Below, one piece after another: positions 4,601-21,145 of a stretch of DNA of 64,000 bases. Source of the stretch: a virus; IMG/VR virus record IMGVR_UViG_3300025137_000026, positions 12,945 through 76,944 of that record; one strand, 5' to 3'. The notes below the pieces were generated by a model. That model made no database searches and was not told where the DNA came from. It worked only from the letters and a program-made list of their open reading frames with translations. How positions within the stretch are numbered: position 1 is the first letter of the stretch; each line of letters begins with the position of its first letter. Both the position numbers and the translations under genes were made by a program.

Positions 4601-7600
4601 GGATGTATTTGCATTTGATAAGCCAGTACAGCCATCTGAGTGGATAGAAGCTGCACGTTCAAAGCTAGCAGGGGAGGGCAAATTCAAGACTATTCCCACT
4701 CTTACAGCGGAGGAAAAGAAAGCAAGGGCAGAGGCAGAAGCAAATCCTAGTAATGTTCTTTCTTTCTTTAGTCGGCAGAAGAAGAAGTTAATTCCTTCTA
4801 CGGAAATAATTGAAATCCCTGAGGGTGGTATCAAGGATTTTGATACTGCAAATAAGTTTATCAATAGCATTGATCTTGGAAAATCAGGTTCCACAACATC
4901 CAAAAAAGCTTTAGTACTTAGGTATTTCAAGGAAGGTGAAACTGAGAATCCGGTCTACCTTGTGAGAACTATAACTGCCCCCACCGATGCAGATGGTAAT
5001 AAGGGTAGAACAATAGTAGGGATGACCACTCATGCTAGTGGCAAGAATAAGAGTAAAAGGAAGATAACACCCTTAAGTTCTACGAAAGGTGGACTTGATT
5101 TAACAGATGAGAACTTCCAGGAACACTTCGATGATGATACCGATCTAGCTAGGCTTGAGATAGTAGAACTCCTTTCCTTCAGTGAGGAAGCCCGAGTGGA
5201 AGCAAACTTTGAATCCGAAGAAGCTTACAAGCAAGCCATAGAGCAGACAACTGATTACGAATTTATCCGATCCAAGACTACCAAAGAGGTACAAGACTTC
5301 GTTAAACAGGGTAGTGACCGAGCAAAGCGAATTGAGTCATTGGTCATGGACGGAGATAAGTTCAATCCATTACTGAATATTTATGGCCCTGACATTAATG
5401 CTGGAGTATTAAGCGACCTCAAGAAGGATATAAAGGATAGAGCTAGTAAGTCATCCGATAAGGATATAAAGGAGCTTGGTAAGAAGATTTCAAAATCTGA
5501 GCAAATCAGAATCGTTGACTTAGATGCTTTTATTACCCACATACAAGTAGGTGATAAAGGTGAAGTTACCCATGGGTTAGATGTTCTGACTCCCAAGGAG
5601 GGATACTATAATCAAGTAAAGGAAGCCTTAGAGAATTACCGAACAAAAGATGGTAAGGTTCAGAAGAGCGAGTCTAAGAAGAAAGCTAGCGCACAAGGGG
5701 GGGCAACTAACGTAGATCAAGTTAGTGAAAGCGGTATGCAGGGAGAGTCATCCATTCAGGGTTTGAGTCCAGTAGATATTTTAGCCCTCAAGGAAAATAT
5801 AGAATCGAGAGAGAAAGATGAGGAGGAGACACCTGAAGTAGAGGAAGAAGAACCATGGCATGACCCCATGGACTTACAGCAAGATGGTAGAGTATTTTAT
5901 CCGAATGGAGATAGAGCCGAAAGCCCTGTTCATAAAGTTAATATAAATGGAAAAGATACTTATGTTACTTCGGTCATTGAGATGGATGGAAGTAAGACAT
6001 GGTATAGGTATGGGGATAAAGATGGAAACAATGGTAAAGTATATGCTCCTGCTTCTGACTATCCAGTACAGGCAGGAACCAAAAAGGAACTCATTCAAGA
6101 ATTAGAAAAGGAAGAAGCACCTGTTAAGGAATCTGATGAGCTTACAGATACAGAAAGATTATTTAAAGATGAATCTTTCAATCTTGATGGCTTAAGTAGT
6201 CCCGATTTTAAATCAAGTGATACTTCTGAGGGGTCAGCAACTAACGAAGTTAATGAAGAAGCAGTTGAATTCGCAGAGGGAATACTTACGGCAAAAGGAA
6301 TCAGTGAAGCAGATAAAGAAAGGTTAAAAGATAAAATAGCACTACATAAAGATGGTGCAGGCGTAGATGGCAATTCTCTGTACGCTACTGCCATGGATGT
6401 TTTTAATAACACTGAATCTAATAAACTGCTAGAATCAGTAGGTGAAATTGCACATACAGAAGCTGCCTTAGAGGGAGAAATCCAAAGACATATTGATGAG
6501 CCTAAGAACCCGAGGTTAAAGAAGAATCCATTATCGCAAGAACTTCAGCAAGAGAATGAACAAGCCGTCACTGGATTCCTAGATGGCATGAAGGTGGATG
6601 GTGAGCCAGTTAGGTTATCAGCACTTATTAATAGAATGATTCAAGGCATGGACGGATCAACTGAGTTGTCCGGCGCTATCCTTGATATGGCACAGACCTT
6701 ACTTGCTCATCCATTTGCAAAGAAATTAAAGGTAGAGTTTAGATCCTGGGATAACTTTAAGCATGGTATTCAGAATGATGGTAATAATGGCAAACTTACC
6801 CGAGCTTATGTTCGAGGTGATACTATTGTTATGGGGCCATCTTTTAAGTTACAAGCTGACTCCGACCTTAATGCAATGGAATCATTACAGATTACATTTA
6901 TGGAAGAGGTTGCCCACAGGGTTTTGGGTACTGCTGTAGAGGCTGGCATCCAAGCTAAGCGTAAGGGTAAGCTACCTCGAGGTGTGGCTAAGATTATGTC
7001 CCTAAAGCAAGCGACTAAGTTCTATGATGAGACTAAGGAACTCATGGACTGGTTGAGGACAAAAACCGATGGCAAATACTACCATGGACTATTGAATCAG
7101 CACGAGTTCTGGGCAAACTTTGCAACCAATCCCGAGTTTAGAAAGTTCTTGAATCAGCCTATGCCTCAACAGATGAGGCGTAAGTTTAACTCTAGGTTCG
7201 AGAGGGTAATAGATTGGATATTAGACTTAGCTAGTAAGTTATTTGATGTAGACTTTACTCTGAATCGCACAGCATCCACTGAGATTCGTAAACGCTATCG
7301 TACGCTATTACGTACAAGTGATAAGATGGCAGCTAATGATATAGACTTAATGTCACAGAGTCAGAATAAGCTTTATTACAGAGGTGACTCAGCTAACCGA
7401 ACAGACTCAAATGGATTAATAGTTTTTACGGAAAATGAGTTTGATGCACAAGGATATGCTGCTCAAGGGATGGCAGATGAGGATGCAAGTGATGTTGAGC
7501 TAGAAGAAATGGCTGATAAAGCAGAGGCTAATACTCAAGCATTCAATTTGAATGTGAAAAACACTTTGGATTTAACTAAGGGCGTAGAAGGATGGAAAGT

Positions 7601-10600
7601 ACTGCAAAGTCTTGATGATAAAGGTGACCGTAATGTTGGTAATATTCTTAATAAGGGTTGGCAGTTAAATGCAGAAAATGTATCTAATATTAGGTATACA
7701 TGGTGGAGCAATACGACATCTAGCTTCCAGGTTTTTTGGAAGGATGTTATTGTTCCCCAGCTTATCGAAAAGGGTTATGACTCAATAAAGTATAGAGATG
7801 ACAACCATGATACTATAGGAATCTTTGACGCCGAGAATGCTACAGAGATTTCACCTGAGTTACAACAGATGGAATCGGCTGGCTCTATAGATGACTCTGC
7901 TAGTGTCGCACAGGGCACTCTCCGCGCTCACATGGCATCACTCAAGGACTTTGGCTCAGTAGTTAAGGGTGCATTAGCTGACCTAGGTGAAGGGCTAGCT
8001 ATGACACCTGAGAGAATGAAGGAGTTTATAACTATTGAAGGTAGAACAACTCCTGATGTTCTTGCTAAGATACTGGGTAAAAAAGCGAAAGTACTCGCAG
8101 AAGAGGCACAACAGCAACTCGCTGAGGCAACTAGTCCAGACATAAAAGCCCTAGTAGACACAGCAGAGAACATAAACGACTTAGAGACAAGAGCCAACAA
8201 AGACACAGGCGCACGTAACCTATATAACTTGTTAACAGGAGCAAAGGAATCAGTCCAAAAGTTATACAGCGAAATAAAGCATAGTAAGGACACAGCCTTA
8301 AAAACCATAGAAGAGAAGAAGGCTCGTATGGAAGCAATGACTAAGCCTAAGTCTATGTTTGATGCCCAAAAGACTCAGGCAGTATTTGCAAATTACTTCA
8401 AGAAGGCACTTTTCAATAAAACAGAAAAAGGTGAGTACTCTAATGCCCAAGCCTTTGAGGTTGCAATGGGACTGAAGCCTACACCTATTACACTCCTTAG
8501 GGAACTTAAGATAAGCGAGCAGAAGTTATATGAGTTGATGGACAGACTAGCAGAGGCACAAGATGCCAAGGACTTTCTTGAGTTAAAGACAGCTAAAGAG
8601 ATATTCGACCTAATGGATATCAAGGCAGCAGATGTTGGGATAAAGAACCCCGACCTCGACCAAGCTGTTCAAGCTGCAATAGCACTCATGCTAGGTAGTG
8701 ATCAGAAGAATGATGTACCACGTAGTGCATTTACCGTTCGTATGAGGTTAGCCCCAGGGCGAATTGCTGGAACTTCAGTAGAAGAAGCTGTCCAACTTAT
8801 TAAAGCTGCATCCATGGGGCGTCCAACACCTGATGTTAAGGACAAGTCAATGATGTCTATCCTTAAGAATGTTCGTAAGTTGAGAGAGGAGATAGACTCC
8901 ATAGAGGATGACTTAAAGAAAACACTAGAGGAGGAGAAGGTAGCTGAGAAGTTTATAGAAGCTTACAATGACCGGATTGATGACCTAGATGAGTATTTTG
9001 ATAGTACTGCGCCAGTTGAAATACATGAGGGAGCTAAGTACGAGATTCTAAGAATGGATGGAAGTGGCAAGATGATCAGTGAGATGCTTACCTTTTCTTT
9101 AGGTAAAGGGGAAAGCTCTAATGAAGCCAAGATGATGGCAGCCCGAGCTTCTGAGTTATTTAAGATAATGGATACTCAGGAGTATAAGGATCAGTATGAA
9201 GGTAAAGCCAAGGATCGTTACTTCAAGCAACTTGCTAAGGAATTAAGAAAACCTAACTTTGGAATCCAATACACTTCTTCACATGCTGGATTCTTACACG
9301 CAGCTGCATCTGCACTACAAGAGAGATTTGCTAGGCTTGGCCCTCCAGGTAAAGCTATTGCCACGGTGCTAAATGAATACACTCGAGATTACCAATCAGA
9401 AGCAGGTAAAATATTTGGTCAGGGCAGGAGGGTTTCTCAGGCAATGCAAAGACTGCATCGTGAGATGTCTGCTAGTCACGAGAACTTAAATCAATTCATG
9501 AAGGGTTTTGGATCGAAGTTGTTTGATTGGTTCAATGAACGACCCGACCTACAAGGACAAGAAGAGTTAGCTATCAATAAGGTATGGAAGGAGCTTAAGG
9601 AATTAGACCCAACTAGGGAGTATACTGAGGATGGAAGAAAAGCTCTTCGTGCATACCTTAAGCAATGGAGTATACAAAATGAGAACTTTCAAAGGCTCTA
9701 TAAAAAGTACGATATTTCGGTCTTAGATGAAGATGTTGAAAGAGAAAGATTAGCAGGTGGTACTCCAGATGCACTCTATCGTAGATTTGTTGACCAAGGT
9801 GTATTCACAACACCTAGAAGGTTGAACATGGATAAGATAGGTGCAGTTGTTAAACTACTTAAAGTTGATGTAGCAGATAACTTCCAGTTTGAGTCATCCT
9901 TATTTGAGGAAATCTTTGAGGGTATGGGAGAGGCTGAGCAAGAAGGGTCTGATGCGACTGAGAGTTTTACCCAGTCAATGGGCAAGCTAATCGATACGGA
10001 GCTTTCAAATTTATTCTTCAAGCCTTTATTTATGGGCAAGTCAGCCCACACTACACCCTTTAGCCTGACAGCAGACAAGGATGAAGGTAAGAGTGTGCGT
10101 ATACTCCTCCCTGAGGAGCTAGAAAGGGCTTGGAGGAATGCCGAAGGTAAGAACCCTGGTATTAGGGTTGCCAATGCCATACTAAACCTTACTAAAAATC
10201 TACCTGATGCAGACCAAACCACTCTTAAGAGTTTACTTGGTCAATTCGCACATCGTGCAAACGCACTTATAAGTGCAGAGCAAGAAGCTCGTGATGAGCT
10301 AAGGGATATTAGTGAGGAAGTCAGTGGACTAACCACAATGATGCAAGGCTCAAGAATGCACTCCTCGATTCACTCTCGTACATTATATAATATCCTCCCT
10401 GGGGAGTTCTTTGAATATGAGATGTATGATGAGACTTCTTCTGGTCAGTACCTTTCCAAGATTATGATGACTGCCAAGTTTGGTAGAAACGGAGAGAAGA
10501 TTACAGGGAACTATCAAGCAATCCTAGATAACTACAGTGGGTCTTATCGCAAGTATCGAGCCTACATGGGTGAACTTGGTATCCAGCCTAGAGAAGGAGC

Positions 10601-12737
10601 TATGCCAAGCAGAGGTAACAGGATTTGGAACAATAGCGTTAAGAAAAAGATGACTGCCCTCATGGCAAGCAAGGGTGAATCGATGAGCTTCGATCAACTC
10701 GACCTTGAGTCTAGAAATTACATTGATGCGAAGAATGCTATGGCTGCAGCAAGTGCTGCCTTTACTGCGAGAAGCTCAAATAACCAAGATATAGGTTTGG
10801 GGCTAGAGGTCTTGCGCACATTAGCATTTGGAATGGTAAATACAATGAAAGGTGCATGGACAGGTACAATGTCTATCCCTGATATTGGAAAAGCACTTGG
10901 ATTGAATGCCACAATGCTAAGAACGGTAGGTGGAGCTTATGTAAACCTTGCAAAAGAGATGGCTGGTAGCTTACTGGAAAGCTTTGGCATAGAGATGCTC
11001 AGAGCAGACAAGTATGCATCAGACTTGAACGATGTATTTAGTAGAGAAGCCGGAATGTCCACTTTTAGTGAGAATATCACTGAGGTAGGGAAGGAGGGTA
11101 GCTTATCGGGTATGCAACTTGGACTTCGTAAGCTAAAGAACTCCGTAAATGCTATTTCTATGATTGGTGCAGGGCAAAGAAAGAAGACCAGTGGGAATTA
11201 TGTCCCAGCATCCTTACTTACTCCCTTAACTGCACCCTTTACTTACCTTGCTCAAGCAACCAACAAGTCAATAGCCCTGTCTATGGCAAATACAATTGAG
11301 CGTTTTGTAATACAAGCTGCACACGCTCTAGATGCCAAGGGAGTTACCCTAGATAACAACACTTTTGAGATAAAGCCAAGTGACTTAGGTTATGAGGATA
11401 GTAAACTAGATGGCTATATTTTTGGTAACATAGCTATGGTGGAGAAGCTCAATGAAAGACTTGTCTCAGAGGGTATGTCTATAACTCAGCTAGCTCAAGA
11501 TTACAGAAGGCGGACTGCTAATGACCCTGATGCAAAAGCCTTAACCAGAGATGCAGTTTTAGCCTCTTACAATATAGCTATGTCTGAGGTAACTTATGAT
11601 ACTATGTCTGGTAAAGGTTCTTGGACACAGAGTGGTGGAGGTCAGTTCCTTTCCCCACTCGTTGGATGGTCAGTTTCTTCTTATAACAAGAGTATCAATC
11701 AAATGAGAAATAAGGAGGGTAGGCTAGCAATGAGGGAAAGCATTAGGTATATGCTTTTGACTTCTGCATGGCTATTACCTGCTGGTATTGCTTTTACTCT
11801 CTTTACTGATTGGTGGGACGAGGAGATACTGGGTAAACCAAGCTCACTTCGCAAAGTACCTTACAAGGCTGGGCTTCCTATCATGGGATTACCTTTGGCT
11901 ATGACTGACCCTAGGTTTGATGCAATCTCTTTGATGGAAAGGGCAGGTCGAGCAAACAATATCATGGGTATAGCTCAAGAGTTTGTGTCACCCTTACTTA
12001 TCGGGCAACTTGACCCATCATCAATGGCAGGTCGATTTGACCCGACTAGGAGAGTGCTAGCAATATCTACACTAATGAACACCGTTGGTGCAGCTACCAA
12101 TTACTTGAATGCAATCAGGACCAGTAATAAGGAAGCTGATGATTTCGTGCCGGATTACTCTACAGTTGTTAGACCATTAATGTATGCCATGGGATTGAAT
12201 GCAGTTGTACAGAATGCACAGATGGCAACTCACTTAACCGATATAGAAGAACTTGACCCGACTGGATTCCTTTCAACGGAGAGAAGAGTAGCCGATATAA
12301 CAGGCATGAGGAACTCCCTCAGAACATACTCTAAAGTTATGGGCATGGAGATGCGCAAGGGTGGATTCATGACCTATACTGCCACTGCTATGGGTAATGC
12401 CCTTAAGCGAATGGAGCGGGCAGCATACGCAAATGATAAGGAAGAGTTTAAGGAGGCATATAGAAAGGCAGTATCTTTATCTGAGTCAGAAGACCCAAGG
12501 AAGGATGTTATAGATAAATTCAAGAGACGGCATCTTCGTCAGGGAATTACTCGTTACGCTTTAACTGACCGTGACTTGCAGGCTATATTAAGTGTACTGA
12601 GTGACGGAAGAAGAGATAAGCTAACAGACTCTATGAGGAATCATGAATTTTACTTAAGAGGTATAGGGGGCAAGCCTACTGAGTCTAGAGGTAAAGCATC
12701 AAATTACTCAGAGGAACTGAGACGTCTCGCACTATGA
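1689..12737 (+). CDS. Giant polyvalent/internal virion protein with zincin-like and ADP-ribosyltransferase (ART-PolyVal-like) domains
   Basis: 3682 aa; Gly/Ala-rich N-terminus (GGEGITEALQE); EEVAH...HEFWA metallopeptidase-like segment at about 6900-7120; YYRG...VFTENEFDAQGYA...LNVKNTLD...GYDSI...IFD ART-like segment at about 7371-7856. Confidence 0.75.
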   Translation: MPSVAVSSYREFLRNNGQVDKADNYSDGDLALELKQQIEQRGWNIEEFAAGRGDTELVPLIKEAYGANKTYSGILDAPAQQYYTKKQGFKQGAAAGLGAIGMDETERDLMRSAQRDARKGARAGREIFDDYTLIDSFEDLLKYVGQGATRSIVDIVPSMVTAVAGRGVGSKIQKTLEKTDKLSDLKKKAEKYLGEDYGAKAGMGAGALGSSALENTGHVYGDLYEYTKLDPTDKDYLSPAEARALSMFAGGVSGALDSALPVFLLGKLSKSIGKDAAQQEVGKLFKSLPDGMVFLAQGAGGEGITEALQEVVQMATVKYHTGEEWNQKDWERMINGGLLGAIGGGTVTAATGGVARLLQPGQPNEDAELSDAPLEQSTQERIDIRNRFEEKKLNKLTEEGLGTLVTQRGSKRSARVLSVDNKAKVAVVEYANGNTEKINVTELTILEGKTKLIKPEDLKAMSDERLEDLKALKPAMVQDIEAEQESRKEEVDDDTIQTQTTQLEVKATKDGQLIVNDLSSRERVYSATFREEDGVLYIENEAVDAPTDQRKQQSQDILYRQARKKAQDEGLILSLGGKVEFPVPSFDAMDFGDMYTEFAKAIQVINSLEDGSDAQNAVVDAYRPLMQRMHTEGLLETDGGASHRMLDSVETKKNNSAFLKNNPVLARTLGHQIFTDIEAEIENYVDTLSQEQINEGQIQKDAKAIADLYVEEIDGLSTTDALTLARAATKKFAEQHLQDGQWKTETNFDIQTREDEKKAEENKRLQTAKDNFDEHEPEVGKFVRLDKDDKTKFVRITSVDPDTNSFKTEETGDNSVSASAIIKIDTRRGLRIGDFNAIQKQDGSITTKLTVYGNDTENKKGRQGVELSVTEDGKVTHVKYGEKTIAIDEDKNLTLESDNLKSEIGNLVLEEKKVKTPRTKTIFIAPGIAKKGDKILIKPIKIAKSNGAKGGFEVKPLLDTNGEVEGFTEGEDVFAFDKPVQPSEWIEAARSKLAGEGKFKTIPTLTAEEKKARAEAEANPSNVLSFFSRQKKKLIPSTEIIEIPEGGIKDFDTANKFINSIDLGKSGSTTSKKALVLRYFKEGETENPVYLVRTITAPTDADGNKGRTIVGMTTHASGKNKSKRKITPLSSTKGGLDLTDENFQEHFDDDTDLARLEIVELLSFSEEARVEANFESEEAYKQAIEQTTDYEFIRSKTTKEVQDFVKQGSDRAKRIESLVMDGDKFNPLLNIYGPDINAGVLSDLKKDIKDRASKSSDKDIKELGKKISKSEQIRIVDLDAFITHIQVGDKGEVTHGLDVLTPKEGYYNQVKEALENYRTKDGKVQKSESKKKASAQGGATNVDQVSESGMQGESSIQGLSPVDILALKENIESREKDEEETPEVEEEEPWHDPMDLQQDGRVFYPNGDRAESPVHKVNINGKDTYVTSVIEMDGSKTWYRYGDKDGNNGKVYAPASDYPVQAGTKKELIQELEKEEAPVKESDELTDTERLFKDESFNLDGLSSPDFKSSDTSEGSATNEVNEEAVEFAEGILTAKGISEADKERLKDKIALHKDGAGVDGNSLYATAMDVFNNTESNKLLESVGEIAHTEAALEGEIQRHIDEPKNPRLKKNPLSQELQQENEQAVTGFLDGMKVDGEPVRLSALINRMIQGMDGSTELSGAILDMAQTLLAHPFAKKLKVEFRSWDNFKHGIQNDGNNGKLTRAYVRGDTIVMGPSFKLQADSDLNAMESLQITFMEEVAHRVLGTAVEAGIQAKRKGKLPRGVAKIMSLKQATKFYDETKELMDWLRTKTDGKYYHGLLNQHEFWANFATNPEFRKFLNQPMPQQMRRKFNSRFERVIDWILDLASKLFDVDFTLNRTASTEIRKRYRTLLRTSDKMAANDIDLMSQSQNKLYYRGDSANRTDSNGLIVFTENEFDAQGYAAQGMADEDASDVELEEMADKAEANTQAFNLNVKNTLDLTKGVEGWKVLQSLDDKGDRNVGNILNKGWQLNAENVSNIRYTWWSNTTSSFQVFWKDVIVPQLIEKGYDSIKYRDDNHDTIGIFDAENATEISPELQQMESAGSIDDSASVAQGTLRAHMASLKDFGSVVKGALADLGEGLAMTPERMKEFITIEGRTTPDVLAKILGKKAKVLAEEAQQQLAEATSPDIKALVDTAENINDLETRANKDTGARNLYNLLTGAKESVQKLYSEIKHSKDTALKTIEEKKARMEAMTKPKSMFDAQKTQAVFANYFKKALFNKTEKGEYSNAQAFEVAMGLKPTPITLLRELKISEQKLYELMDRLAEAQDAKDFLELKTAKEIFDLMDIKAADVGIKNPDLDQAVQAAIALMLGSDQKNDVPRSAFTVRMRLAPGRIAGTSVEEAVQLIKAASMGRPTPDVKDKSMMSILKNVRKLREEIDSIEDDLKKTLEEEKVAEKFIEAYNDRIDDLDEYFDSTAPVEIHEGAKYEILRMDGSGKMISEMLTFSLGKGESSNEAKMMAARASELFKIMDTQEYKDQYEGKAKDRYFKQLAKELRKPNFGIQYTSSHAGFLHAAASALQERFARLGPPGKAIATVLNEYTRDYQSEAGKIFGQGRRVSQAMQRLHREMSASHENLNQFMKGFGSKLFDWFNERPDLQGQEELAINKVWKELKELDPTREYTEDGRKALRAYLKQWSIQNENFQRLYKKYDISVLDEDVERERLAGGTPDALYRRFVDQGVFTTPRRLNMDKIGAVVKLLKVDVADNFQFESSLFEEIFEGMGEAEQEGSDATESFTQSMGKLIDTELSNLFFKPLFMGKSAHTTPFSLTADKDEGKSVRILLPEELERAWRNAEGKNPGIRVANAILNLTKNLPDADQTTLKSLLGQFAHRANALISAEQEARDELRDISEEVSGLTTMMQGSRMHSSIHSRTLYNILPGEFFEYEMYDETSSGQYLSKIMMTAKFGRNGEKITGNYQAILDNYSGSYRKYRAYMGELGIQPREGAMPSRGNRIWNNSVKKKMTALMASKGESMSFDQLDLESRNYIDAKNAMAAASAAFTARSSNNQDIGLGLEVLRTLAFGMVNTMKGAWTGTMSIPDIGKALGLNATMLRTVGGAYVNLAKEMAGSLLESFGIEMLRADKYASDLNDVFSREAGMSTFSENITEVGKEGSLSGMQLGLRKLKNSVNAISMIGAGQRKKTSGNYVPASLLTPLTAPFTYLAQATNKSIALSMANTIERFVIQAAHALDAKGVTLDNNTFEIKPSDLGYEDSKLDGYIFGNIAMVEKLNERLVSEGMSITQLAQDYRRRTANDPDAKALTRDAVLASYNIAMSEVTYDTMSGKGSWTQSGGGQFLSPLVGWSVSSYNKSINQMRNKEGRLAMRESIRYMLLTSAWLLPAGIAFTLFTDWWDEEILGKPSSLRKVPYKAGLPIMGLPLAMTDPRFDAISLMERAGRANNIMGIAQEFVSPLLIGQLDPSSMAGRFDPTRRVLAISTLMNTVGAATNYLNAIRTSNKEADDFVPDYSTVVRPLMYAMGLNAVVQNAQMATHLTDIEELDPTGFLSTERRVADITGMRNSLRTYSKVMGMEMRKGGFMTYTATAMGNALKRMERAAYANDKEEFKEAYRKAVSLSESEDPRKDVIDKFKRRHLRQGITRYALTDRDLQAILSVLSDGRRDKLTDSMRNHEFYLRGIGGKPTESRGKASNYSEELRRLAL

Positions 12738-14875: not shown

Positions 14876-15916
14876 TTACTTGTGTACATATCCTTCGGTA
14901 GTCTTGGTATTAGAATGACCTACAGCCTTACCAATCTCCTCTAAGCTAAGTCCTTGCTTCTCTAGTCTAGTGATACATGAGTGCCTCAGGGAGTGAAAGC
15001 TACGACCTACTATATTTAGCCTTTCGCAGAATCTAGAAAAGTAAACACTAGCCTTTGATCTTTTCTTAGGATCAGTAGTATCTTTATGCCATTCAGGAAA
15101 GCAGTAGATTTCATCTTCTACATCTATTTCGGATAGAACTTTTTTAAGGATTCCTCCACCAAAGTTTTCATTTGTGGTATCAATTGATACCATTTTATCA
15201 CGCTTTTCTGTCCATACTACCATTCGGTTTCTATCCTTTATACTAGCCCACTCCAAGCTAGCAATGTCACCAAGCCTAAGACCAGTCCAATAAGATATTG
15301 CGATTGCCTGTCTAAAGAAATACGGAGCATGCTTGATCATCTTATCGACCTCTGCTTCCTTGAAGACTCTCTTCTTCTTGGGTGTTTTTTGATTATGAAG
15401 TAATTTAGATTTATCTATCTTGATGAACATTATTGGGTTAGTAATAACATACATCTTTATCTGTGCGAAGTTCCACAACTGATTAAGACTAGACCTGCGT
15501 AGCGCTCGATTACCCAAGCTTGTACCATCATCAGCATTAATGAAATTAAAGATATTGCTTTCATTGATCATAGCCATTGGTTTATCATTAAGCTTATAAT
15601 CACGACCGAATTGATCGTATATTGACATCATGGTGTAGATCGAATTATCGGAGTTAGCCGAAAGCCTCATGTGCTGTTCATACTCTTTCAACACATCTTT
15701 ATACTTCATTGACTTACTGCCAATTATTTTAGTTATTACATCGGAGGATAGAACACCTATCTTCCCAGCATTCTCTAGCTCTTCGATCTTTAAGTCTTTA
15801 ATTAATTGCCTAGCTTCTTTTTTATCTTTAGTCCTCAGATTAGTTGATCTTTGTGAGCCATTCACATCTCGGAAACGCACTGAATAGTTCCCACTCTCAC
15901 TCTTTATTAATTTCAT
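14876..15916 (-). CDS. Tyrosine recombinase (second, no adjacent tRNA att site)
   Basis: TGLRLGD, FHSLRHS, VGHS, TEGY catalytic R-H-R-H-Y set; N-terminal arm-binding-like domain. Confidence 0.92.
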   Translation of the reverse strand: MKLIKSESGNYSVRFRDVNGSQRSTNLRTKDKKEARQLIKDLKIEELENAGKIGVLSSDVITKIIGSKSMKYKDVLKEYEQHMRLSANSDNSIYTMMSIYDQFGRDYKLNDKPMAMINESNIFNFINADDGTSLGNRALRRSSLNQLWNFAQIKMYVITNPIMFIKIDKSKLLHNQKTPKKKRVFKEAEVDKMIKHAPYFFRQAIAISYWTGLRLGDIASLEWASIKDRNRMVVWTEKRDKMVSIDTTNENFGGGILKKVLSEIDVEDEIYCFPEWHKDTTDPKKRSKASVYFSRFCERLNIVGRSFHSLRHSCITRLEKQGLSLEEIGKAVGHSNTKTTEGYVHK

Positions 15917-15950
15917 TTTGTTACACTTCTATTAATTAGGTTACACTTAA

Positions 15951-18437
15951 TCAAGCTAATTGTTTATCTTGTATTTCAACATCAGCTTGTACGGCTAGCT
16001 TGCCTTTTAGCTTATGCCACTTGGCTTCCATTTTAATTTCAGGCTCAGTATCGACACGCTCACTATCGAAGCTAAGGAAATGCTCAGCGAATATTTCACT
16101 GGCAGAACCCTCCTTGAAGTCAGCAGGTACATACTCACCTAGTAGGCAGATAGTTGCTGCATCCCTCTTGTCTGCAAGCTTATCGAACATTGCTTCCTCG
16201 ATGGTATCTTGATTGAGCAGAACCTTGATATTCACATCCTTGGTTGAATTGAGTCTGTATACTCTACCCATAGCCTGATGAAATGCACCATAGCTCCAGT
16301 CAAACGAGCCTATGATCATATTGTTACACTCATTGAAACTATGACCAACTGCACATCTTGAACCAAAGGCAAGAACTCTAGTCTTACCACTCTTAAAGTT
16401 GTTAGCTTCCCTTACATGGTTACTAGCCTCTGAATCAATTCTTGAGCATTCTATACCAGCTTCACCAAGCCTCTTGATTAACTCCGTTGTCTGCCCGCAT
16501 GAGGACGAGACATGGATAATCTGCTCACCTCGCTCTAGTGTCTCTCCGATAAGTTCAAGAGTAGTGATCAGCTTGGGATTGAAGTTAGAGTTTACCCATC
16601 CGTTATTGAAGTATCTACCAACAGGATCCGCGCAGATACCTCTGAGTCTTTGTAACTGCACACCATACTTAGTCTTGGGGTCACGGAATGGAATATTTCT
16701 AATGTCAAGGTTGTGGGCATAGAGTTTCTTCTGTGCAAACCCAAGTGGTACACGGATAGTCTCAACATTGCAGTCAACCACATCAGGATTGCACTCCTCC
16801 TTGGATATGTAGGCAACGATAGATTTAAGTACCTTGAGCAATCTTTGAGTCTGACTGATTGTTGGTGAAGTCTTTTGGCATACTGACCCATTGCCACGTA
16901 AGGACTCCTCGGTGTAGTCTCGCTCTTGAGTTAGAAATGTAGTTCTGAATGCAGTTTCAGACTCAATAGTGTAAGGCCATCTAGGATTACTTTTCTCTCC
17001 ATGATACCAATTAGGAACTGCTAACCATCCGGCAAGTGGGAAAATATTGGGTAACATGTTCGGCACTGGTGTAGCTGTTAAGCAGTAACGATACTTAGGT
17101 TGTAATCGTATTAAGCAACTAGTGATTGCTGAATCTAAGTTCTGCATGATATGTGCCTCATCAATCAGAGCCATATCAAACTGATGCTTAGTTAGAGTGC
17201 AGAGGCTAGGCTTAACAATACAAGTGAATCCATTGCGAGTCTGACCTACACCTCTATGCCATTGATTTTCTGTAGCAGGTGGCTTCTCCTTGTCAAAGGG
17301 TGCATCAAGGTCAAAGTCTCTGAGCCGTGCGCGAAACTTCTCCTCACGCTTATTAGCAGCCCAAGCCTTAGGTATCTTCTCGAATGCCTTAGTAGTACAG
17401 AATGCATTAGGGTAAGTAATATAAACTCCTGGGGGAAGAGTACCACTCGGTCTAAGTAAAGACTTGTAATCATCCAATGTAAAAAGGTTATGCACCTTAG
17501 TATCAGGAGAGAACTTATTAATCTCTGCTACCCACTGGGCAGGATCATGCTTAGTGGAATTACCCGAAGCATCCTTCACCGTACCCTTAGGAGCAACAAT
17601 CAGACATCTCTTAGAGTTCTTAGCATTCTTTATGGCAATAGCCATGCAAGTCTTACCAGTGCCTACATCACCACTTACCATAGCCTCATCCACACAAAGG
17701 ACTCGAGCAATGTAATCCTTCTGCCCAGGGTAGAACGGAATACCATTCAACTCTTCCAACTGCGTGAGCTTATGGTTGTAGTGTTCAAACAGCTTTGGTC
17801 TTAGTTCAGCAACCGTCTTAATATCTAGCATATCAAAGAAGCTCCACACCTTTGTACTAGGGAACTCACCTTGTCCGACTGGATTATCTCGGAATGTGAA
17901 CTCTTGGTTATCATCATCCTTGAATACATAACCAGCATCCACTCCATATCTCTCAATCTCATGATCAATGACATAGGTTCTGCCGTCTGCATCGGTATGC
18001 ATCTTCTTGCTAGATAACGGACGAGTATAAGAGTACTTGAGCCTACGGAACTTGTACTTATTTCCCTTAGTTATCTTTGGCCATGAGCCTTCACCGAAGA
18101 ACTTAAAGTCCTTGGGGCGCTCAGGTTGCTCGAGTGCTTCCAGTACTTTCACTTCATCAATCATGCCAACCATCTCATAGGGAGTCATTGGGCGTATTGG
18201 TGGAGAGGTGAACTTGGATTCATTTAAAGCCTCATTGATTGAAGCTTTGGAGTTAGGCTCGATGTCTACGGAATCATGGTTGTATAACTCCTGTAGTACT
18301 CGTCTGTCTGTAGACACTACTACTAGTGCCATTGGAGTCATGCCATCCACATAGGACAGCTTAGCATCGATGCTTTTATTTTTGGTAGGCTTGGTACGTA
18401 TAGCACCAAGTGGGTTAAGCCACATATTATATTTCAT
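15951..18437 (-). CDS. SNF2-like SF2 helicase/ATPase
   Basis: GDVGTGKT, LIDEAH, LTATP, QAMGRVYR motifs. Confidence 0.9.
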   Translation of the reverse strand: MKYNMWLNPLGAIRTKPTKNKSIDAKLSYVDGMTPMALVVVSTDRRVLQELYNHDSVDIEPNSKASINEALNESKFTSPPIRPMTPYEMVGMIDEVKVLEALEQPERPKDFKFFGEGSWPKITKGNKYKFRRLKYSYTRPLSSKKMHTDADGRTYVIDHEIERYGVDAGYVFKDDDNQEFTFRDNPVGQGEFPSTKVWSFFDMLDIKTVAELRPKLFEHYNHKLTQLEELNGIPFYPGQKDYIARVLCVDEAMVSGDVGTGKTCMAIAIKNAKNSKRCLIVAPKGTVKDASGNSTKHDPAQWVAEINKFSPDTKVHNLFTLDDYKSLLRPSGTLPPGVYITYPNAFCTTKAFEKIPKAWAANKREEKFRARLRDFDLDAPFDKEKPPATENQWHRGVGQTRNGFTCIVKPSLCTLTKHQFDMALIDEAHIMQNLDSAITSCLIRLQPKYRYCLTATPVPNMLPNIFPLAGWLAVPNWYHGEKSNPRWPYTIESETAFRTTFLTQERDYTEESLRGNGSVCQKTSPTISQTQRLLKVLKSIVAYISKEECNPDVVDCNVETIRVPLGFAQKKLYAHNLDIRNIPFRDPKTKYGVQLQRLRGICADPVGRYFNNGWVNSNFNPKLITTLELIGETLERGEQIIHVSSSCGQTTELIKRLGEAGIECSRIDSEASNHVREANNFKSGKTRVLAFGSRCAVGHSFNECNNMIIGSFDWSYGAFHQAMGRVYRLNSTKDVNIKVLLNQDTIEEAMFDKLADKRDAATICLLGEYVPADFKEGSASEIFAEHFLSFDSERVDTEPEIKMEAKWHKLKGKLAVQADVEIQDKQLA

Positions 18438-19513: not shown

Positions 19514-21145
19514 TTACATTTTAATGAACTCTGCAAACAATATTCTGTATGCACGTTCAGCTTGGGCTGGCACTATGCCATTCCCTAAGAGTCTGAGTCT
19601 TGGGACTCGTAGAGCCATGATTTCGGGAGAAGCGTAGTATTCTTGTGGAGTCCTTGGATTTGCTCCACCCATGCCGGATTCAACTTGCCGTGTATATTGA
19701 GTCTCCCCAAGTTCCTCGCTAGTGATGCTTGATTGCTGTTCACTTCGCTCTTCGGATTCTTGTTGTGATCGTACTGGGCTGGCGTCCCCCATTGTGGTAG
19801 ACGAGCTAAGTCCCGACCCAGGCACTTCTGATTCGAGTCCGTTGCTGTCCTTGCTCCCTCCACATGATCCGATGCTTGTGGGGTTGCCCACTTCTCGGGA
19901 TTCTCCATATGTTCCACTGCGTCCCTCAGTTTCGCTCCGTACTTCGTTCCGTTCTCCCTCGTTGCCGTGAAGCCCGTGTCCGTCATCTTCACATCCTTGG
20001 CTACTCCTCCTTCTACTAGTCCTGCTACCGTTGGTGTTGGGAACATTATCTCGGGATTCATCTCGGGATTCACTACATCTTCCCTCAGATTCTTGCATCC
20101 TCCCTTCTTCTTGTTGCGAGCAAGTGCTTCCCCTGTCTTCGGTGGAAGTACATCCATCGTGTTTGGGGTTGCCCATGCTTTGGCGGATGCTTCCTTCGAT
20201 TGTTGAATAGCCGTCTCCGTTATCGCCACATGGCTGAGCATCTTCTGCTTCTGATTGCCCAACGGACGAGTTGCTTTCTCCTCCCCCGTGGTTGGAGTTG
20301 GCCAAGTCTTCTGATCCGATAGAGCTACTGCCGACAGACTTGGATTCTGTCTGTTCTTCTCCGACTCGGGAGTCCCATCCGTCTTCCCCGTCCTTGGGGT
20401 AGGCCATGATGACCCTTGGTTCTTCCCATCCGTGCTGAGCTTCCCCTGGACGTGAAGGCCATGTACCTGCTCGCCAAGGTTGCTCTTCCCCCGATCCGTC
20501 AAGCAAGCTCGGGAGTCTTGCTCCTTCGGTGTCCCCCACTGATCGTTCAGACTCATCTGGGTTTGCGTTTCGGAAGAGCATGAAGACACGCTTACGTTGG
20601 TGAGGCGCGCCTTCTTCACTCGCGCTGACCACTGTGAACGCACCCTCGTAACCAATTTCTTCCATTCGTCCCAAGACATATTTGAGTACGCTTGTGTTCT
20701 GCTCGCCACCGAACTTACAACTGATGATGCCCTCGACATTTTCGAGTGCGACCCAGTTGGGACGGCAAAGATCAACTCCGTTTGCAATGAAGGGGAAGAG
20801 GTGTCTTGGGTCTTCAGTTCCTTTCCGAATCCCTGACGATGAGAAGGGCTGGCAAGGGAAGCCCGCAGATAAGATGTCCACGCATCCACGGAACTTTCCG
20901 TATGGGAACTCTTTAACATCCGTAAAGACAGGAGCCTCAGCCAATTCACCCTCTTCAATCTTAGCAACCAAGTTCGCGCAAGCGTATCCTTCCCGTTCCA
21001 CGTATGCGATTTCTCGCAAGTTTGGGAATATTCCTCTAAGTCCTCTGCCCATTCCTTCGTATCCCGAACACATAGAGAGGTGAGTAACGACGTTATTGGT
21101 AAGTATACCTTGTATTTGCTTTTCTTCATAGTTTTCATCATTCAT
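19514..21145 (-). CDS. C5 cytosine DNA methyltransferase, catalytic (alpha) chain lacking motif IX
   Basis: Motif I LSMCSGYEG, IV AGFPCQPFS, VI LENV, VIII HQRKRVF, X RLLGNGIVP; about 300-aa disordered G/S/E/R-rich middle. Confidence 0.9.
   Translation of the reverse strand: MNDENYEEKQIQGILTNNVVTHLSMCSGYEGMGRGLRGIFPNLREIAYVEREGYACANLVAKIEEGELAEAPVFTDVKEFPYGKFRGCVDILSAGFPCQPFSSSGIRKGTEDPRHLFPFIANGVDLCRPNWVALENVEGIISCKFGGEQNTSVLKYVLGRMEEIGYEGAFTVVSASEEGAPHQRKRVFMLFRNANPDESERSVGDTEGARLPSLLDGSGEEQPWRAGTWPSRPGEAQHGWEEPRVIMAYPKDGEDGWDSRVGEEQTESKSVGSSSIGSEDLANSNHGGGESNSSVGQSEAEDAQPCGDNGDGYSTIEGSIRQSMGNPKHDGCTSTEDRGSTCSQQEEGRMQESEGRCSESRDESRDNVPNTNGSRTSRRRSSQGCEDDGHGLHGNEGERNEVRSETEGRSGTYGESREVGNPTSIGSCGGSKDSNGLESEVPGSGLSSSTTMGDASPVRSQQESEERSEQQSSITSEELGETQYTRQVESGMGGANPRTPQEYYASPEIMALRVPRLRLLGNGIVPAQAERAYRILFAEFIKM
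19585..21141 (-). CDS. Overlapping-frame second (beta) chain of the MTase: seven W/F-x-T-P units plus motif IX
   Basis: 518 open codons nested in the MTase gene; ends in LNPAWVEQIQGL (motif IX-like). Confidence 0.8.
   Translation of the reverse strand: MMKTMKKSKYKVYLPITSLLTSLCVRDTKEWAEDLEEYSQTCEKSHTWNGKDTLARTWLLRLKRVNWLRLLSLRMLKSSHTESSVDAWTSYLRASLASPSHRQGFGKELKTQDTSSPSLQTELIFAVPTGSHSKMSRASSVVSSVASRTQAYSNMSWDEWKKLVTRVRSQWSARVKKARLTNVSVSSCSSETQTQMSLNDQWGTPKEQDSRACLTDRGKSNLGEQVHGLHVQGKLSTDGKNQGSSWPTPRTGKTDGTPESEKNRQNPSLSAVALSDQKTWPTPTTGEEKATRPLGNQKQKMLSHVAITETAIQQSKEASAKAWATPNTMDVLPPKTGEALARNKKKGGCKNLREDVVNPEMNPEIMFPTPTVAGLVEGGVAKDVKMTDTGFTATRENGTKYGAKLRDAVEHMENPEKWATPQASDHVEGARTATDSNQKCLGRDLARLPQWGTPAQYDHNKNPKSEVNSNQASLARNLGRLNIHGKLNPAWVEQIQGLHKNTTLLPKSWLYESQDSDS

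What the first reader, a model, noticed from the sequence alone, without database searches (positions are those of the whole stretch)
19514..21145. Dual-frame C5 methyltransferase: second chain carries seven tandem putative target-recognition modules
Seen: two same-strand frames are open over the same 1.55 kb (543 aa from 21145; 518 aa from 21141, starts 4 nt apart in ATGAATGATG). Frame A has motifs I, IV, VI, VIII and X, but between VIII and X it is only disordered G/S/E/R-rich sequence, with no motif IX or recognisable TRD. Over that interval frame B has seven units beginning WGTP (20538), WPTP (20406), WPTP (20304), WATP (20175), FPTP (20043), WATP (19890) and WGTP (19791). Each unit has a variable middle and ends in an L-x-x-x-V/L helix (NLGEQV, SLSAVA, MLSHVA, NLREDV, KLRDAV, CLGRDL, SLARNL). 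Frame B then ends with motif IX-like LNPAWVEQIQGL. The locus also looks more GC-rich than its flanks. Known: M.EcoHK31I is a two-chain C5 MTase whose motif IX chain is encoded in an alternative frame, and Bacillus phage multispecific MTases (SPR, phi3T) use tandem TRDs. Inference: this combines both features, giving an expandable array of specificity modules in an overprinted frame that could protect the phage against several restriction systems.
Basis: partly seen in the sequence, partly recalled or inferred. Interest (0 to 1): 0.9.

Follow-up and report, generated by a model that had tools for sequence, protein, structure and literature searches.

The report
Two-frame split phage cytosine methyltransferase gene
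One phage gene is read in two overlapping frames from almost the same start: one frame gives the catalytic half of a DNA cytosine methyltransferase, the other gives its DNA-recognition half as a shuffled array of small modules, and about 80 related viral contigs share this design, which I found described in no paper.

Summary
Frame A (21145..19514, 543 aa) carries C5-methyltransferase motifs I-VIII and X. Frame B (+1, 21141..19585, 518 aa) carries seven WxTP units at the stated coordinates, then a motif IX-like sequence.

This is not chance or sequencing error. In 72 related viral loci, motif IX lies in the +1 frame relative to I-VIII. Frame A has 0 stops across the middle, against about 6 expected from synonymous codon shuffles. 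Frame B is open from a twin start next to A's start. Frame C carries the expected number of stops.

Substitution periodicity switches from A (N-terminus) to B (middle and IX) and back to A (tail). A's middle is an unconstrained, stop-free linker. A's synonymous sites in the N-terminal 190 codons are strongly constrained, so B's leader also appears to be under selection. Relatives with motif X in frame B let frame A terminate early.

Best reading: a two-chain enzyme made by dual initiation, closest to M.EcoHK31I and M.AquI but overlapping along its whole length. The units fall into about 25 recurrent types, combined in different numbers (1-7) and orders. That fits swappable target-recognition modules, but multispecificity is untested.

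Expression and assembly are inferred. The scan noted a similar hidden-frame WxTP array in another genome (e1-6049192).

The parts
19514..21145 (-). Frame A ORF (543 aa), chain A: catalytic domain (motifs I-VIII), WPSRPG..EEPRV motif, long unconstrained linker, motif X
   Evidence: ORF. PF00145 on residues 22-190, E 2.9e-28; phrog_363 on residues 20-534. M.HhaI, E 6e-20.
19585..21141 (-). Frame B ORF (518 aa, +1 relative to A), chain B: basic leader, seven WxTP units, motif IX-like end
   Evidence: ORF; 481 homologues, mostly without any Pfam domain; 607 cluster representatives; codon periodicity in the middle follows frame B.
21136..21145 (-). Twin start ATGAATGATG: A starts at ATG 21145; B starts at ATG 21141 or 21138
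   Evidence: In relatives, 51 of 68 distinct start regions have [AG]TGTGGA, with B's ATG first and A's GTG 2 nt later. The others have a B-frame ATG from 11 nt upstream to 13 nt downstream of A's ATG.
20582..21076 (-). Doubly constrained stretch: A motifs I (21076-21053), IV (20863-20840), VI (20743-20729) and VIII (20599-20582), overprinted by B leader residues about 22-187
   Evidence: coordinates. A's 4-fold sites have a mean third-position entropy of 0.58 bit, against 1.44 bit in the A-only tail (p = 4e-4). A-pos3 differences are 14% here against 33-35% elsewhere in the same gene pair.
20557..20679 (-). B residues 155-195: conserved basic helix (M155, W160, V164, R168, S172, R174 and K176 invariant) just before the first unit. 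M155 may be an internal start.
   Evidence: invariant columns; helix 157-181 at pLDDT about 70. A's Tyr156 is TAT in 66 of 66 sequences, which keeps the ATG in frame B.
20411..20461 (-). Frame A motif WPSRPGEAQHGWEEPRV (A residues 229-245), nearly invariant in relatives; it overlaps the end of B's first unit
   Evidence: In type-2 relatives, frame A stops right after this motif. In some relatives an equivalent W..WE..PRV lies between IX and X in a single frame.
19684..20538 (-). Seven WxTP units in frame B, of types G, J, Q, D, B, K and R, starting at 20538, 20406, 20304, 20175, 20043, 19890 and 19791. Over the same bases frame A gives only an S/G/E/R-rich linker (A residues 246-490, 19676-20410).
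   Evidence: unit typing. B's synonymous sites are near saturation, so A is not constrained at the amino-acid level here; frame A has 0 stops against about 10 expected.
19648..19683 (-). Motif IX-like LNPAWVEQIQGL in frame B, overlapping frame A's conserved L-G-x5-RVxRL stretch ahead of motif X
   Evidence: motif IX is in the +1 frame in essentially all loci; codon entropy is near zero here in both frames; 127 of 148 representatives carry the motif.
19514..19591 (-). Motif X (LLGNGIVP, 19591-19568) and the A-only C-terminal tail. B's stop codon (19587-19585) lies inside motif X.
   Evidence: synonymous sites become free (1.2-2.0 bit) just after B's stop.

Best explanation
The locus encodes a heterodimeric phage DNA cytosine-5 methyltransferase from two same-strand reading frames that overlap along almost the whole gene. 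Ribosomes start at either of two start codons a few bases apart. Frame A gives the catalytic large domain (motifs I-VIII plus a WPSRPG..EEPRV motif). It then runs through about 245 residues of sequence-unconstrained, stop-free linker whose only role is to reach motif X, the C-terminal helix that completes the AdoMet-binding domain. Frame B gives a basic leader of about 190 residues overprinted on the catalytic domain. After the leader come an array of WxTP modules of 35-50 aa, which stand in for the target-recognition domain, and then motif IX. The two chains are inferred to assemble into one HhaI-like enzyme, as in M.EcoHK31I and M.AquI. The WxTP modules are shuffled cassettes. The most likely role of a multi-unit array is to let one catalytic core methylate several target sequences and so protect the phage genome from several restriction systems. 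What the data show: both frames are conserved and kept open, purifying selection alternates between them, and the module types are mosaic. What is inferred: translation of both chains, their assembly, and one specificity per module.
For: (1) Conservation. Among 80 viral loci found with A's N-terminus, motif IX is in frame +1 and motif X is back in frame 0 in essentially every complete locus. GenBank phage C75C1 has the same design, as do contigs from Opitutae, Planctomycetota and Thiohalomonadaceae MAGs.
(2) Stop avoidance. Frame A has 0 stops over the middle in 72 of 72 loci against a mean of 6.0 expected. Frame B is open from the shared start against about 3.4 expected. Frame C matches expectation.
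(3) Periodicity, window against L002. Differences at A codon positions 1/2/3 are 9/2/27 in the N-terminus, 96/30/22 in the middle (the pattern of frame B), 15/7/8 at IX and 2/1/8 in the tail.
(4) The A linker is unconstrained. B's synonymous sites in the units have 1.3-1.7 bit of entropy.
(5) The B leader is constrained. A's 4-fold sites have 0.58 bit against 1.44 bit in the A-only tail (p = 4e-4), with many invariant 4-fold codons next to saturated ones.
(6) A natural control. In L082/L083, and in 14 of 148 representatives, motif X is in frame with IX. In L082 frame A then stops right after the EPPRV motif and carries 14 further stops.
(7) Twin starts are conserved and compensated.
(8) Only 3 of 148 B-family representatives carry PF00145 in the same frame, so the split is the rule.
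(9) Precedent: M.EcoHK31I and M.AquI are active two-chain C5 methyltransferases (PMC2836561, PMC3404938).
(10) Modules: 218 units are all distant paralogues. They fall into about 25 recurrent types, combined as 1-7 units in different orders.
Against: No protein, ribosome-profiling or methylation data exist for any member. AlphaFold2 gave low confidence for B alone (mean pLDDT 41). It also gave low confidence for the unit region of a natural in-frame A-to-B fusion, so no fold-level link of the units to a TRD was obtained. B shows no sequence similarity to any solved structure. The window's own start region has no obvious Shine-Dalgarno sequence. One MAG relative (L095) has a stop inside the B leader, followed by a Met, so a full-length leader is not absolutely required. 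A 190-aa leader and a 245-aa linker are costly, and no function is known for the leader. The low synonymous divergence of the N-terminus could partly reflect recent exchange of that segment, although saturated sites are interspersed with invariant ones. The loci are related to one another, so the 72 are not independent observations.
Confidence: 0.65

Rival explanations
1. A single canonical methyltransferase is made by two programmed ribosomal frameshifts: +1 just after motif VIII and -1 just after motif IX. These join A(I-VIII), B(units and IX) and A(X) into one chain.
For: The joined product would have the textbook motif order. In most loci B's stop lies only 53-56 nt before A's stop, and the first unit begins about 12 codons after motif VIII. 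In the type-2 relatives a single +1 shift would be enough. Natural in-frame A-to-B fusions such as P0082 and P0217 occur in metagenomes.
Against: Frameshifting does not need frame B to be open and constrained across the 190 upstream codons. It does not need frame A to be open across the middle either. Both hold in about 72 loci. It also gives no reason for the conserved twin start codons. There is no zero-frame stop or other recognisable shift site after motif VIII. In L082 frame A's stop lies downstream of two conserved B units. Two shifts in series would give a low yield.
Confidence: 0.12
2. There are two chains, but the WxTP array is one composite DNA-binding domain with a single or relaxed specificity. 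On this reading it is repeats that add affinity or processivity, not a set of independent target-recognition domains.
For: All the units are paralogues sharing a WxTP...L-x-x-x-V frame. No similarity to the Bacillus-phage TRDs or to any solved TRD was found. The structure models were uninformative. Members with a single unit exist, so one unit is presumably enough for activity.
Against: Unit types are individually conserved at 50-90% identity across distant loci while their number and order vary, for example GJQDBKR, GJDBAK, BAC, DAC and BPFDMEC. That is the pattern expected of autonomous cassettes. A repeat domain that folds cooperatively would not be expected to tolerate deletion and reordering.
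Confidence: 0.3
3. Chain B starts at an internal codon (invariant Met155, just before the conserved helix). The upstream part of frame B is not translated or has no function.
For: Met155 is invariant in the main clade. It is held by an otherwise unusual TAT codon for A's Tyr156, in 66 of 66 sequences. L095 has a stop in the leader followed by a Met. The leader gets low model confidence.
Against: Frame B is open from the twin start in nearly all loci, against 3-5 stops expected. A's synonymous sites are constrained from codon 28 onward. Met155 is absent in divergent relatives (L082, L085, L090, L091), which still keep the frame open and the leader sequence similar. Both forms could coexist.
Confidence: 0.15
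4. The second open frame is an accident of T-poor composition, a pseudogene or an assembly error.
For: The coding strand has only 13% T in the middle. Some database proteins are A/B chimeras that could arise from indels. L053 has a broken frame.
Against: Frame C, with the same composition, carries the expected 10-40 stops. The design recurs in independent assemblies that differ by 30-40% at the amino-acid level. Frame B encodes conserved motifs and shows its own codon periodicity.
Confidence: 0.02

Closest known systems
M.EcoHK31I (two-chain C5 methyltransferase, YGGCCR)
   Same: The alpha chain carries motifs I-VIII and X. The beta chain carries motif IX and is encoded in another reading frame inside the alpha gene. 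Both chains are needed for activity (PMC2836561, PMC3404938).
   Different: In M.EcoHK31I the TRD stays in alpha, and beta is a short ORF wholly inside the alpha gene (I recall about 61 aa; not checked here). Here the whole recognition region sits with motif IX in the second frame. That frame spans almost the whole gene from a twin start. About 190 codons appear to be selected in both frames, and the first chain needs a long junk linker to reach motif X.
M.AquI (two-chain C5 methyltransferase, CYCGRG)
   Same: The split falls in the variable region after motif VIII. The small chain carries motifs IX and X (PMC3404938). The type-2 relatives found here (L082/L083 and 14 of 148 representatives) have exactly this division of motifs.
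   Different: As I recall it (not checked here), the two M.AquI genes lie one after the other with a short overlap. Here the second ORF overlaps the entire first gene. In the window itself, motif X belongs to the first chain.
Multispecific Bacillus phage C5 methyltransferases (M.SPRI, M.Phi3TI, M.H2I, M.Rho11sI, M.phiBssHII)
   Same: These are phage-encoded enzymes with several short (about 40-50 aa) recognition domains in tandem between motifs VIII and IX. Each domain gives one specificity and can be swapped or deleted. This description rests on my own knowledge and on the Wilke 1988 and Sethmann 1999 references listed in PMC8936443; those papers were not held in the library.
   Different: Those enzymes are single polypeptides in one frame. 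No sequence similarity between their TRDs and the WxTP units was found or could be tested. Independent specificity of each unit is not shown here.
PHROG 363 'DNA methyltransferase' and the single-CDS annotation of phage C75C1 (WJE88153.1)
   Same: Frame A matches phrog_363 over residues 20-534. Databases therefore already hold members, annotated as ordinary one-chain methyltransferases.
   Different: The annotation ignores frame B. B-frame ORFs sit in protein databases as hypothetical proteins without a domain.

Membership tests
DNA cytosine-5 methyltransferase (Pfam PF00145, HhaI-like) | Catalytic large-domain motifs I (FxGxG-like), IV (PCQ), VI (ENV) and VIII (QxRxR) | tested here: met
   Frame A: PF00145 E 2.9e-28 on residues 22-190. 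A profile of A homologues hits M.HhaI at E 6e-20. The model of a relative's N-terminus matches HaeIII and HhaI.
DNA cytosine-5 methyltransferase (Pfam PF00145, HhaI-like) | TRD, motif IX and motif X follow in the same polypeptide | tested here: not met
   Motif X is in frame A. The TRD-like units and motif IX are in frame +1. Only 3 of 148 B-family representatives have PF00145 in frame.
M.EcoHK31I-type overlapping two-chain methyltransferase | Large chain with I-VIII and X; motif IX on a second chain encoded in another frame of the same DNA | tested here: met
   The family definition comes from PMC2836561 and PMC3404938.
M.EcoHK31I-type overlapping two-chain methyltransferase | TRD located on the large (alpha) chain; beta is a short internal ORF | tested here: not met
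   The units lie in frame B, and B spans 518 codons from a twin start.
M.EcoHK31I-type overlapping two-chain methyltransferase | Both chains are made and both are required for methylation | not testable with these tools
   Only comparative evidence is available. Complex prediction closed before its result could be collected.
M.AquI-type split (alpha I-VIII, beta IX-X) | Motifs IX and X together on the second chain | tested here: not met
   Not met in the window, where motif X is in frame A. Met in relatives L082/L083 and in 14 of 148 representatives.
Multispecific phage C5 methyltransferases (SPR / phi3T type) | Several tandem recognition modules between motifs VIII and IX | tested here: met
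   There are seven units of 33-51 aa between VIII and IX, though in frame B. Relatives have 1-7 units.
Multispecific phage C5 methyltransferases (SPR / phi3T type) | Each module confers its own target sequence; modules are exchangeable | not testable with these tools
   Shuffling of about 25 unit types among loci is consistent with this, but no methylation data exist.
Multispecific phage C5 methyltransferases (SPR / phi3T type) | Homology of the modules to known TRDs | tested here: inconclusive
   There was no hit to any solved chain at E <= 10. The models of the units have pLDDT below 50. Sequences of the Bacillus phage TRDs were not available for comparison.
Programmed ribosomal frameshift gene | A conserved shift site with a zero-frame stop or slippery motif, and no need for the alternative frames to stay open outside the used parts | tested here: not met
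   There is no zero-frame stop after motif VIII. Both frames are open and selected well beyond the parts a shifted product would use. The shift-site search was by eye only.

The most novel reading that the evidence does not exclude
This is a family of phage genes in which two full-length proteins are read from one mRNA stretch in two frames, starting at twin start codons. About 190 codons are under purifying selection in both frames. The second protein carries a recombining cassette array of target-recognition modules. One catalytic core could then be re-aimed at many restriction sites by cassette gain, loss and reordering, giving a natural, programmable, multispecific anti-restriction methyltransferase.
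Probability: 0.35. Interest if true: 0.9.

Novelty: new variant of a known kind. Interest (0 to 1): 0.8.

Why it matters
Same-strand overlaps of about 500 codons, with both frames selected, are very rare in phages and bacteria. Here the overlap is conserved across hundreds of sequence clusters: 607 representatives at 50% identity.

Gene callers report only one of the two frames. As a result, databases hold the catalytic halves as ordinary 'DNA methyltransferase' entries and the recognition halves as domain-less hypothetical proteins.

If the two chains assemble, this would be a third natural architecture for split C5 methyltransferases. Natural variants that place motif X on either chain suggest it may tolerate different split points.

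If each WxTP cassette sets one target sequence, the family would be a library of small, portable specificity modules. It would also be a model for how phages diversify protection against restriction. Its own relatives supply the comparisons: arrays of one to seven units, and type 1 against type 2 splits.

Tried and rejected
- AlphaFold2 of B alone gave mean pLDDT 41. A model of P0082, a natural in-frame A-to-B fusion, used a block alignment. Only its catalytic domain was confident, and Foldseek aligned only about 170 N-terminal residues to HaeIII and HhaI. Neither model says anything for or against the units being TRDs.
- B against solved structures, Pfam, NCBIfam and PHROGs gave nothing meaningful.
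- tblastn of the unit region against 50,697 GenBank phages found nothing. Full-length B found only phage C75C1, so no cultured host is known.
- Literature searches for an overlapping-frame or frameshifted phage C5 methyltransferase found nothing describing this family. A search for C75C1 was uninformative. The classic TRD papers (PMC457134, PMC1171429) are not held.
- Single-linkage clustering of the units merged 188 of 218 into one group. It was replaced by a threshold of at least 50% identity and 70% coverage.
- The chance-open-frame and sequencing-error readings were rejected.
Full report
**Observation**

The minus strand of the window holds two ORFs over the same DNA. Frame A runs 21145..19514 (543 aa). 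Frame B runs 21141..19585 (518 aa) and is +1 relative to A.
- Pfam sees a C5 DNA methylase only in A residues 22-190 (E 2.9e-28).
- PHROG 363 'DNA methyltransferase' aligns A from residue 20 to 534.
- A profile of A homologues hits M.HhaI motifs IV-VIII at E 6e-20.
- A residues 246-490 are rich in S/G/E/R and acidic.
- GC rises to 0.50-0.55 against 0.40-0.45 in the flanks, and T falls to 13% on the coding strand.

The window is part of a 76.9-kb IMG/VR virus record rated complete. It also carries an integrase, helicases, an exonuclease, a terminase and a portal.

**Is the design more than chance?**

GenBank phage C75C1 is annotated with a single 'DNA methyltransferase' CDS, yet it has the same two frames, 480 and 459 aa. 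A search of viral contigs with A's N-terminus returned 80 loci at 61-97% identity.
- In essentially every complete locus, motifs I-VIII are in frame 0, motif IX is in frame +1 and motif X is back in frame 0.
- Both ORFs span the gene, while frame C has 10-40 stops.
- Permuting synonymous codons in the selected frame predicts a mean of 6.0 stops in frame A across the middle. The observed count is 0 in 72 of 72 loci.
- The same test predicts about 3.4 stops in frame B across the N-terminus. None is seen inside the genes.
- Frame C matches its expectation.

The loci are related, so they are not 72 independent trials. However, unconstrained synonymous sites in the same alignments are near saturation, so stops would have accumulated without selection.

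**Which frame is selected where?**

Between the window and its close relative L002, differences at A codon positions 1/2/3 are as follows.

| Region | Pos 1 | Pos 2 | Pos 3 | Sites per position | Pattern |
|---|---|---|---|---|---|
| N-terminus | 9 | 2 | 27 | 190 | frame A |
| Middle | 96 | 30 | 22 | 290 | frame B (A pos 1 = B pos 3) |
| Motif IX | 15 | 7 | 8 | 35 | frame B |
| Tail after B's stop | 2 | 1 | 8 | 23 | frame A |

- B's synonymous sites inside the four commonest unit types carry 0.95-1.73 bit of codon entropy, at least 1.3 bit in three of the four. Frame A is therefore not constrained at the amino-acid level in the middle; it is only kept free of stops.
- A's 4-fold sites in the N-terminal 190 codons carry only 0.58 bit, against 1.44 bit in the A-only tail (Mann-Whitney p = 4e-4).
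- Invariant 4-fold codons (for example Gly53 GGA, Pro72 CCT, Val77 GTT, Gly165 GGT, Ala175 GCG) sit next to saturated ones (Leu25, Ser27, Val137, Ser142).
- In the window-L002 pair, A-pos3 divergence is 14% in the N-terminus against 33-35% in the rest of the gene.

The simplest reading is that B's leader is itself under purifying selection. About 190 codons would then be truly dual-coding.

**Starts**

In 51 of 68 distinct start regions the sequence is [AG]TGTGGA. There B's ATG comes first (protein MWILPKQ...), and A's GTG begins 2 nt later (protein VDTTKT..HLSLCSGYEG).

The remaining lineages have an ATG for A and a B-frame ATG between 11 nt upstream and 13 nt downstream of it. Often a B-frame stop lies just before that ATG. 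The window has ATGAATGATG. Where the overlapping ATG/GTG pair is lost (L021, L022), a new B-frame ATG appears four codons upstream.

**A natural control**

In divergent relatives L082/L083 (protein P0079), motif X lies in the same frame as IX. Frame A then stops immediately after its WPSRPG..EPPRV motif and carries 14 further stops in the next 338 codons. Frame B is still open from the shared start.

Fourteen of 148 family representatives have this AquI-like division. Frame A is therefore kept open only where it must reach motif X. That is what translation of two separate chains predicts.

**Size of the family**

- The B region (aa 150-518) hits 607 representatives of 50%-identity clusters at E <= 1e-3, and 159 at E <= 1e-10.
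- Of 148 representatives scanned, 127 have motif IX and only 3 have PF00145 in frame. The 2 of those 3 that I identified look like deletion or indel chimeras.
- Only phage C75C1 among 50,697 GenBank phage records carries the family.
- MAG contigs of Opitutae, Blastopirellula and other Planctomycetota, Kiritimatiellia and Thiohalomonadaceae matched the B query. The three I read (Opitutae, Blastopirellula, Thiohalomonadaceae) show the two-frame design. This is a weak hint about hosts.

**The units**

I extracted 218 units from 59 distinct loci. All are distant paralogues. At 50% identity or more they form about 25 recurrent types. The commonest occur in 23-37 loci.

Types are combined as 1-7 units in different orders. 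The window and L002 read G-J-Q-D-B-K-R, and L003/L005 read G-J-D-B-A-K. Other loci read BAC, DAC, BFDAV or BPFDMEC, and some have a single unit.

This mosaic is what autonomous cassettes would give. It resembles the tandem target-recognizing domains of the multispecific Bacillus phage enzymes; that comparison rests on my own knowledge, because the primary papers were not held. It does not show that each unit has its own target.

**Mechanism and rivals**

The best-supported model is dual initiation giving two chains that assemble. M.EcoHK31I and M.AquI are precedents (PMC2836561, PMC3404938).

- *Double frameshift.* This would also give a canonical enzyme. It explains neither the open, constrained B leader, nor the open A linker, nor the twin starts, and I saw no shift site by eye.
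- *Internal start at Met155.* Met155 is invariant in the main clade and is held by a fixed TAT codon in A. Such a start may add a shorter B form. Met155 is missing in divergent members, which still keep the leader.
- *Full-length leader not always required.* One MAG relative has a stop in the leader.

**Limits**

- There are no expression or methylation data.
- AlphaFold2 gave low confidence for B and for the unit part of a natural fusion.
- B matches nothing solved.
- Literature searches found no description of this family. The library lacks most subscription journals and REBASE.

**Verdict**

Multispecificity is plausible but open.

Noticed in passing
window 1689-12737 (+): A single ORF of 3682 aa, very large for a 77-kb phage genome. 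I did not examine it.
   Followed up: no
window 14876-18437 (-): A tyrosine integrase (phrog_1, E 5e-41) and an 828-aa DNA helicase lie just downstream of the methyltransferase on the same strand.
   Followed up: no
L082:1100-3150 and L083 (IMG/VR 3300033518_000022, 3300033564_000219): These are type-2 relatives. Motif X is in frame with IX in the B frame, which carries nine units. Frame A stops right after its WPSRPG..EPPRV motif. They may represent an evolutionary intermediate between AquI-like and EcoHK31I-like splits.
   Followed up: partly
P0082, P0217, P0003, P0011, P0019: Metagenome proteins in which frames A and B are joined in one frame at various points. P0082 and P0217 switch right after motif VIII, and P0082 stands for 7 member sequences. 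These could be real single-chain variants or indel errors.
   Followed up: partly
L053:2994-3900; L095:1000-2500: L053 has an extra frame change, with IX in frame +2, X in frame +1 and both ORFs truncated. L095 (Blastopirellula MAG) has one stop in the B leader followed by a Met. These are possible decaying copies or copies using an internal start.
   Followed up: no
L094 (Opitutae MAG), L095, L096, L100-L102 (Planctomycetota), L098 (Kiritimatiellia), L097 (Thiohalomonadaceae): The few cellular-genome hits are mostly MAG contigs from the PVC superphylum. This hints at hosts for this marine phage group, but the contigs could be binned phage DNA.
   Followed up: no
alignment A4: One B-family representative also carries HNH_3 and NUMOD4 domains, which are homing-endonuclease-like. 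This may be an endonuclease inserted in or fused to the recognition chain.
   Followed up: no
window 20411-20461 and the equivalent in relatives: The doubly conserved segment (A: WPSRPGExQxxWEEPRV; B: ..DQANxNTxGKSQES) sits at different places relative to the units. It follows unit 1 in the window, unit 2 in L082 and the last unit in C75C1. Units therefore seem to be gained and lost on both sides of it.
   Followed up: partly
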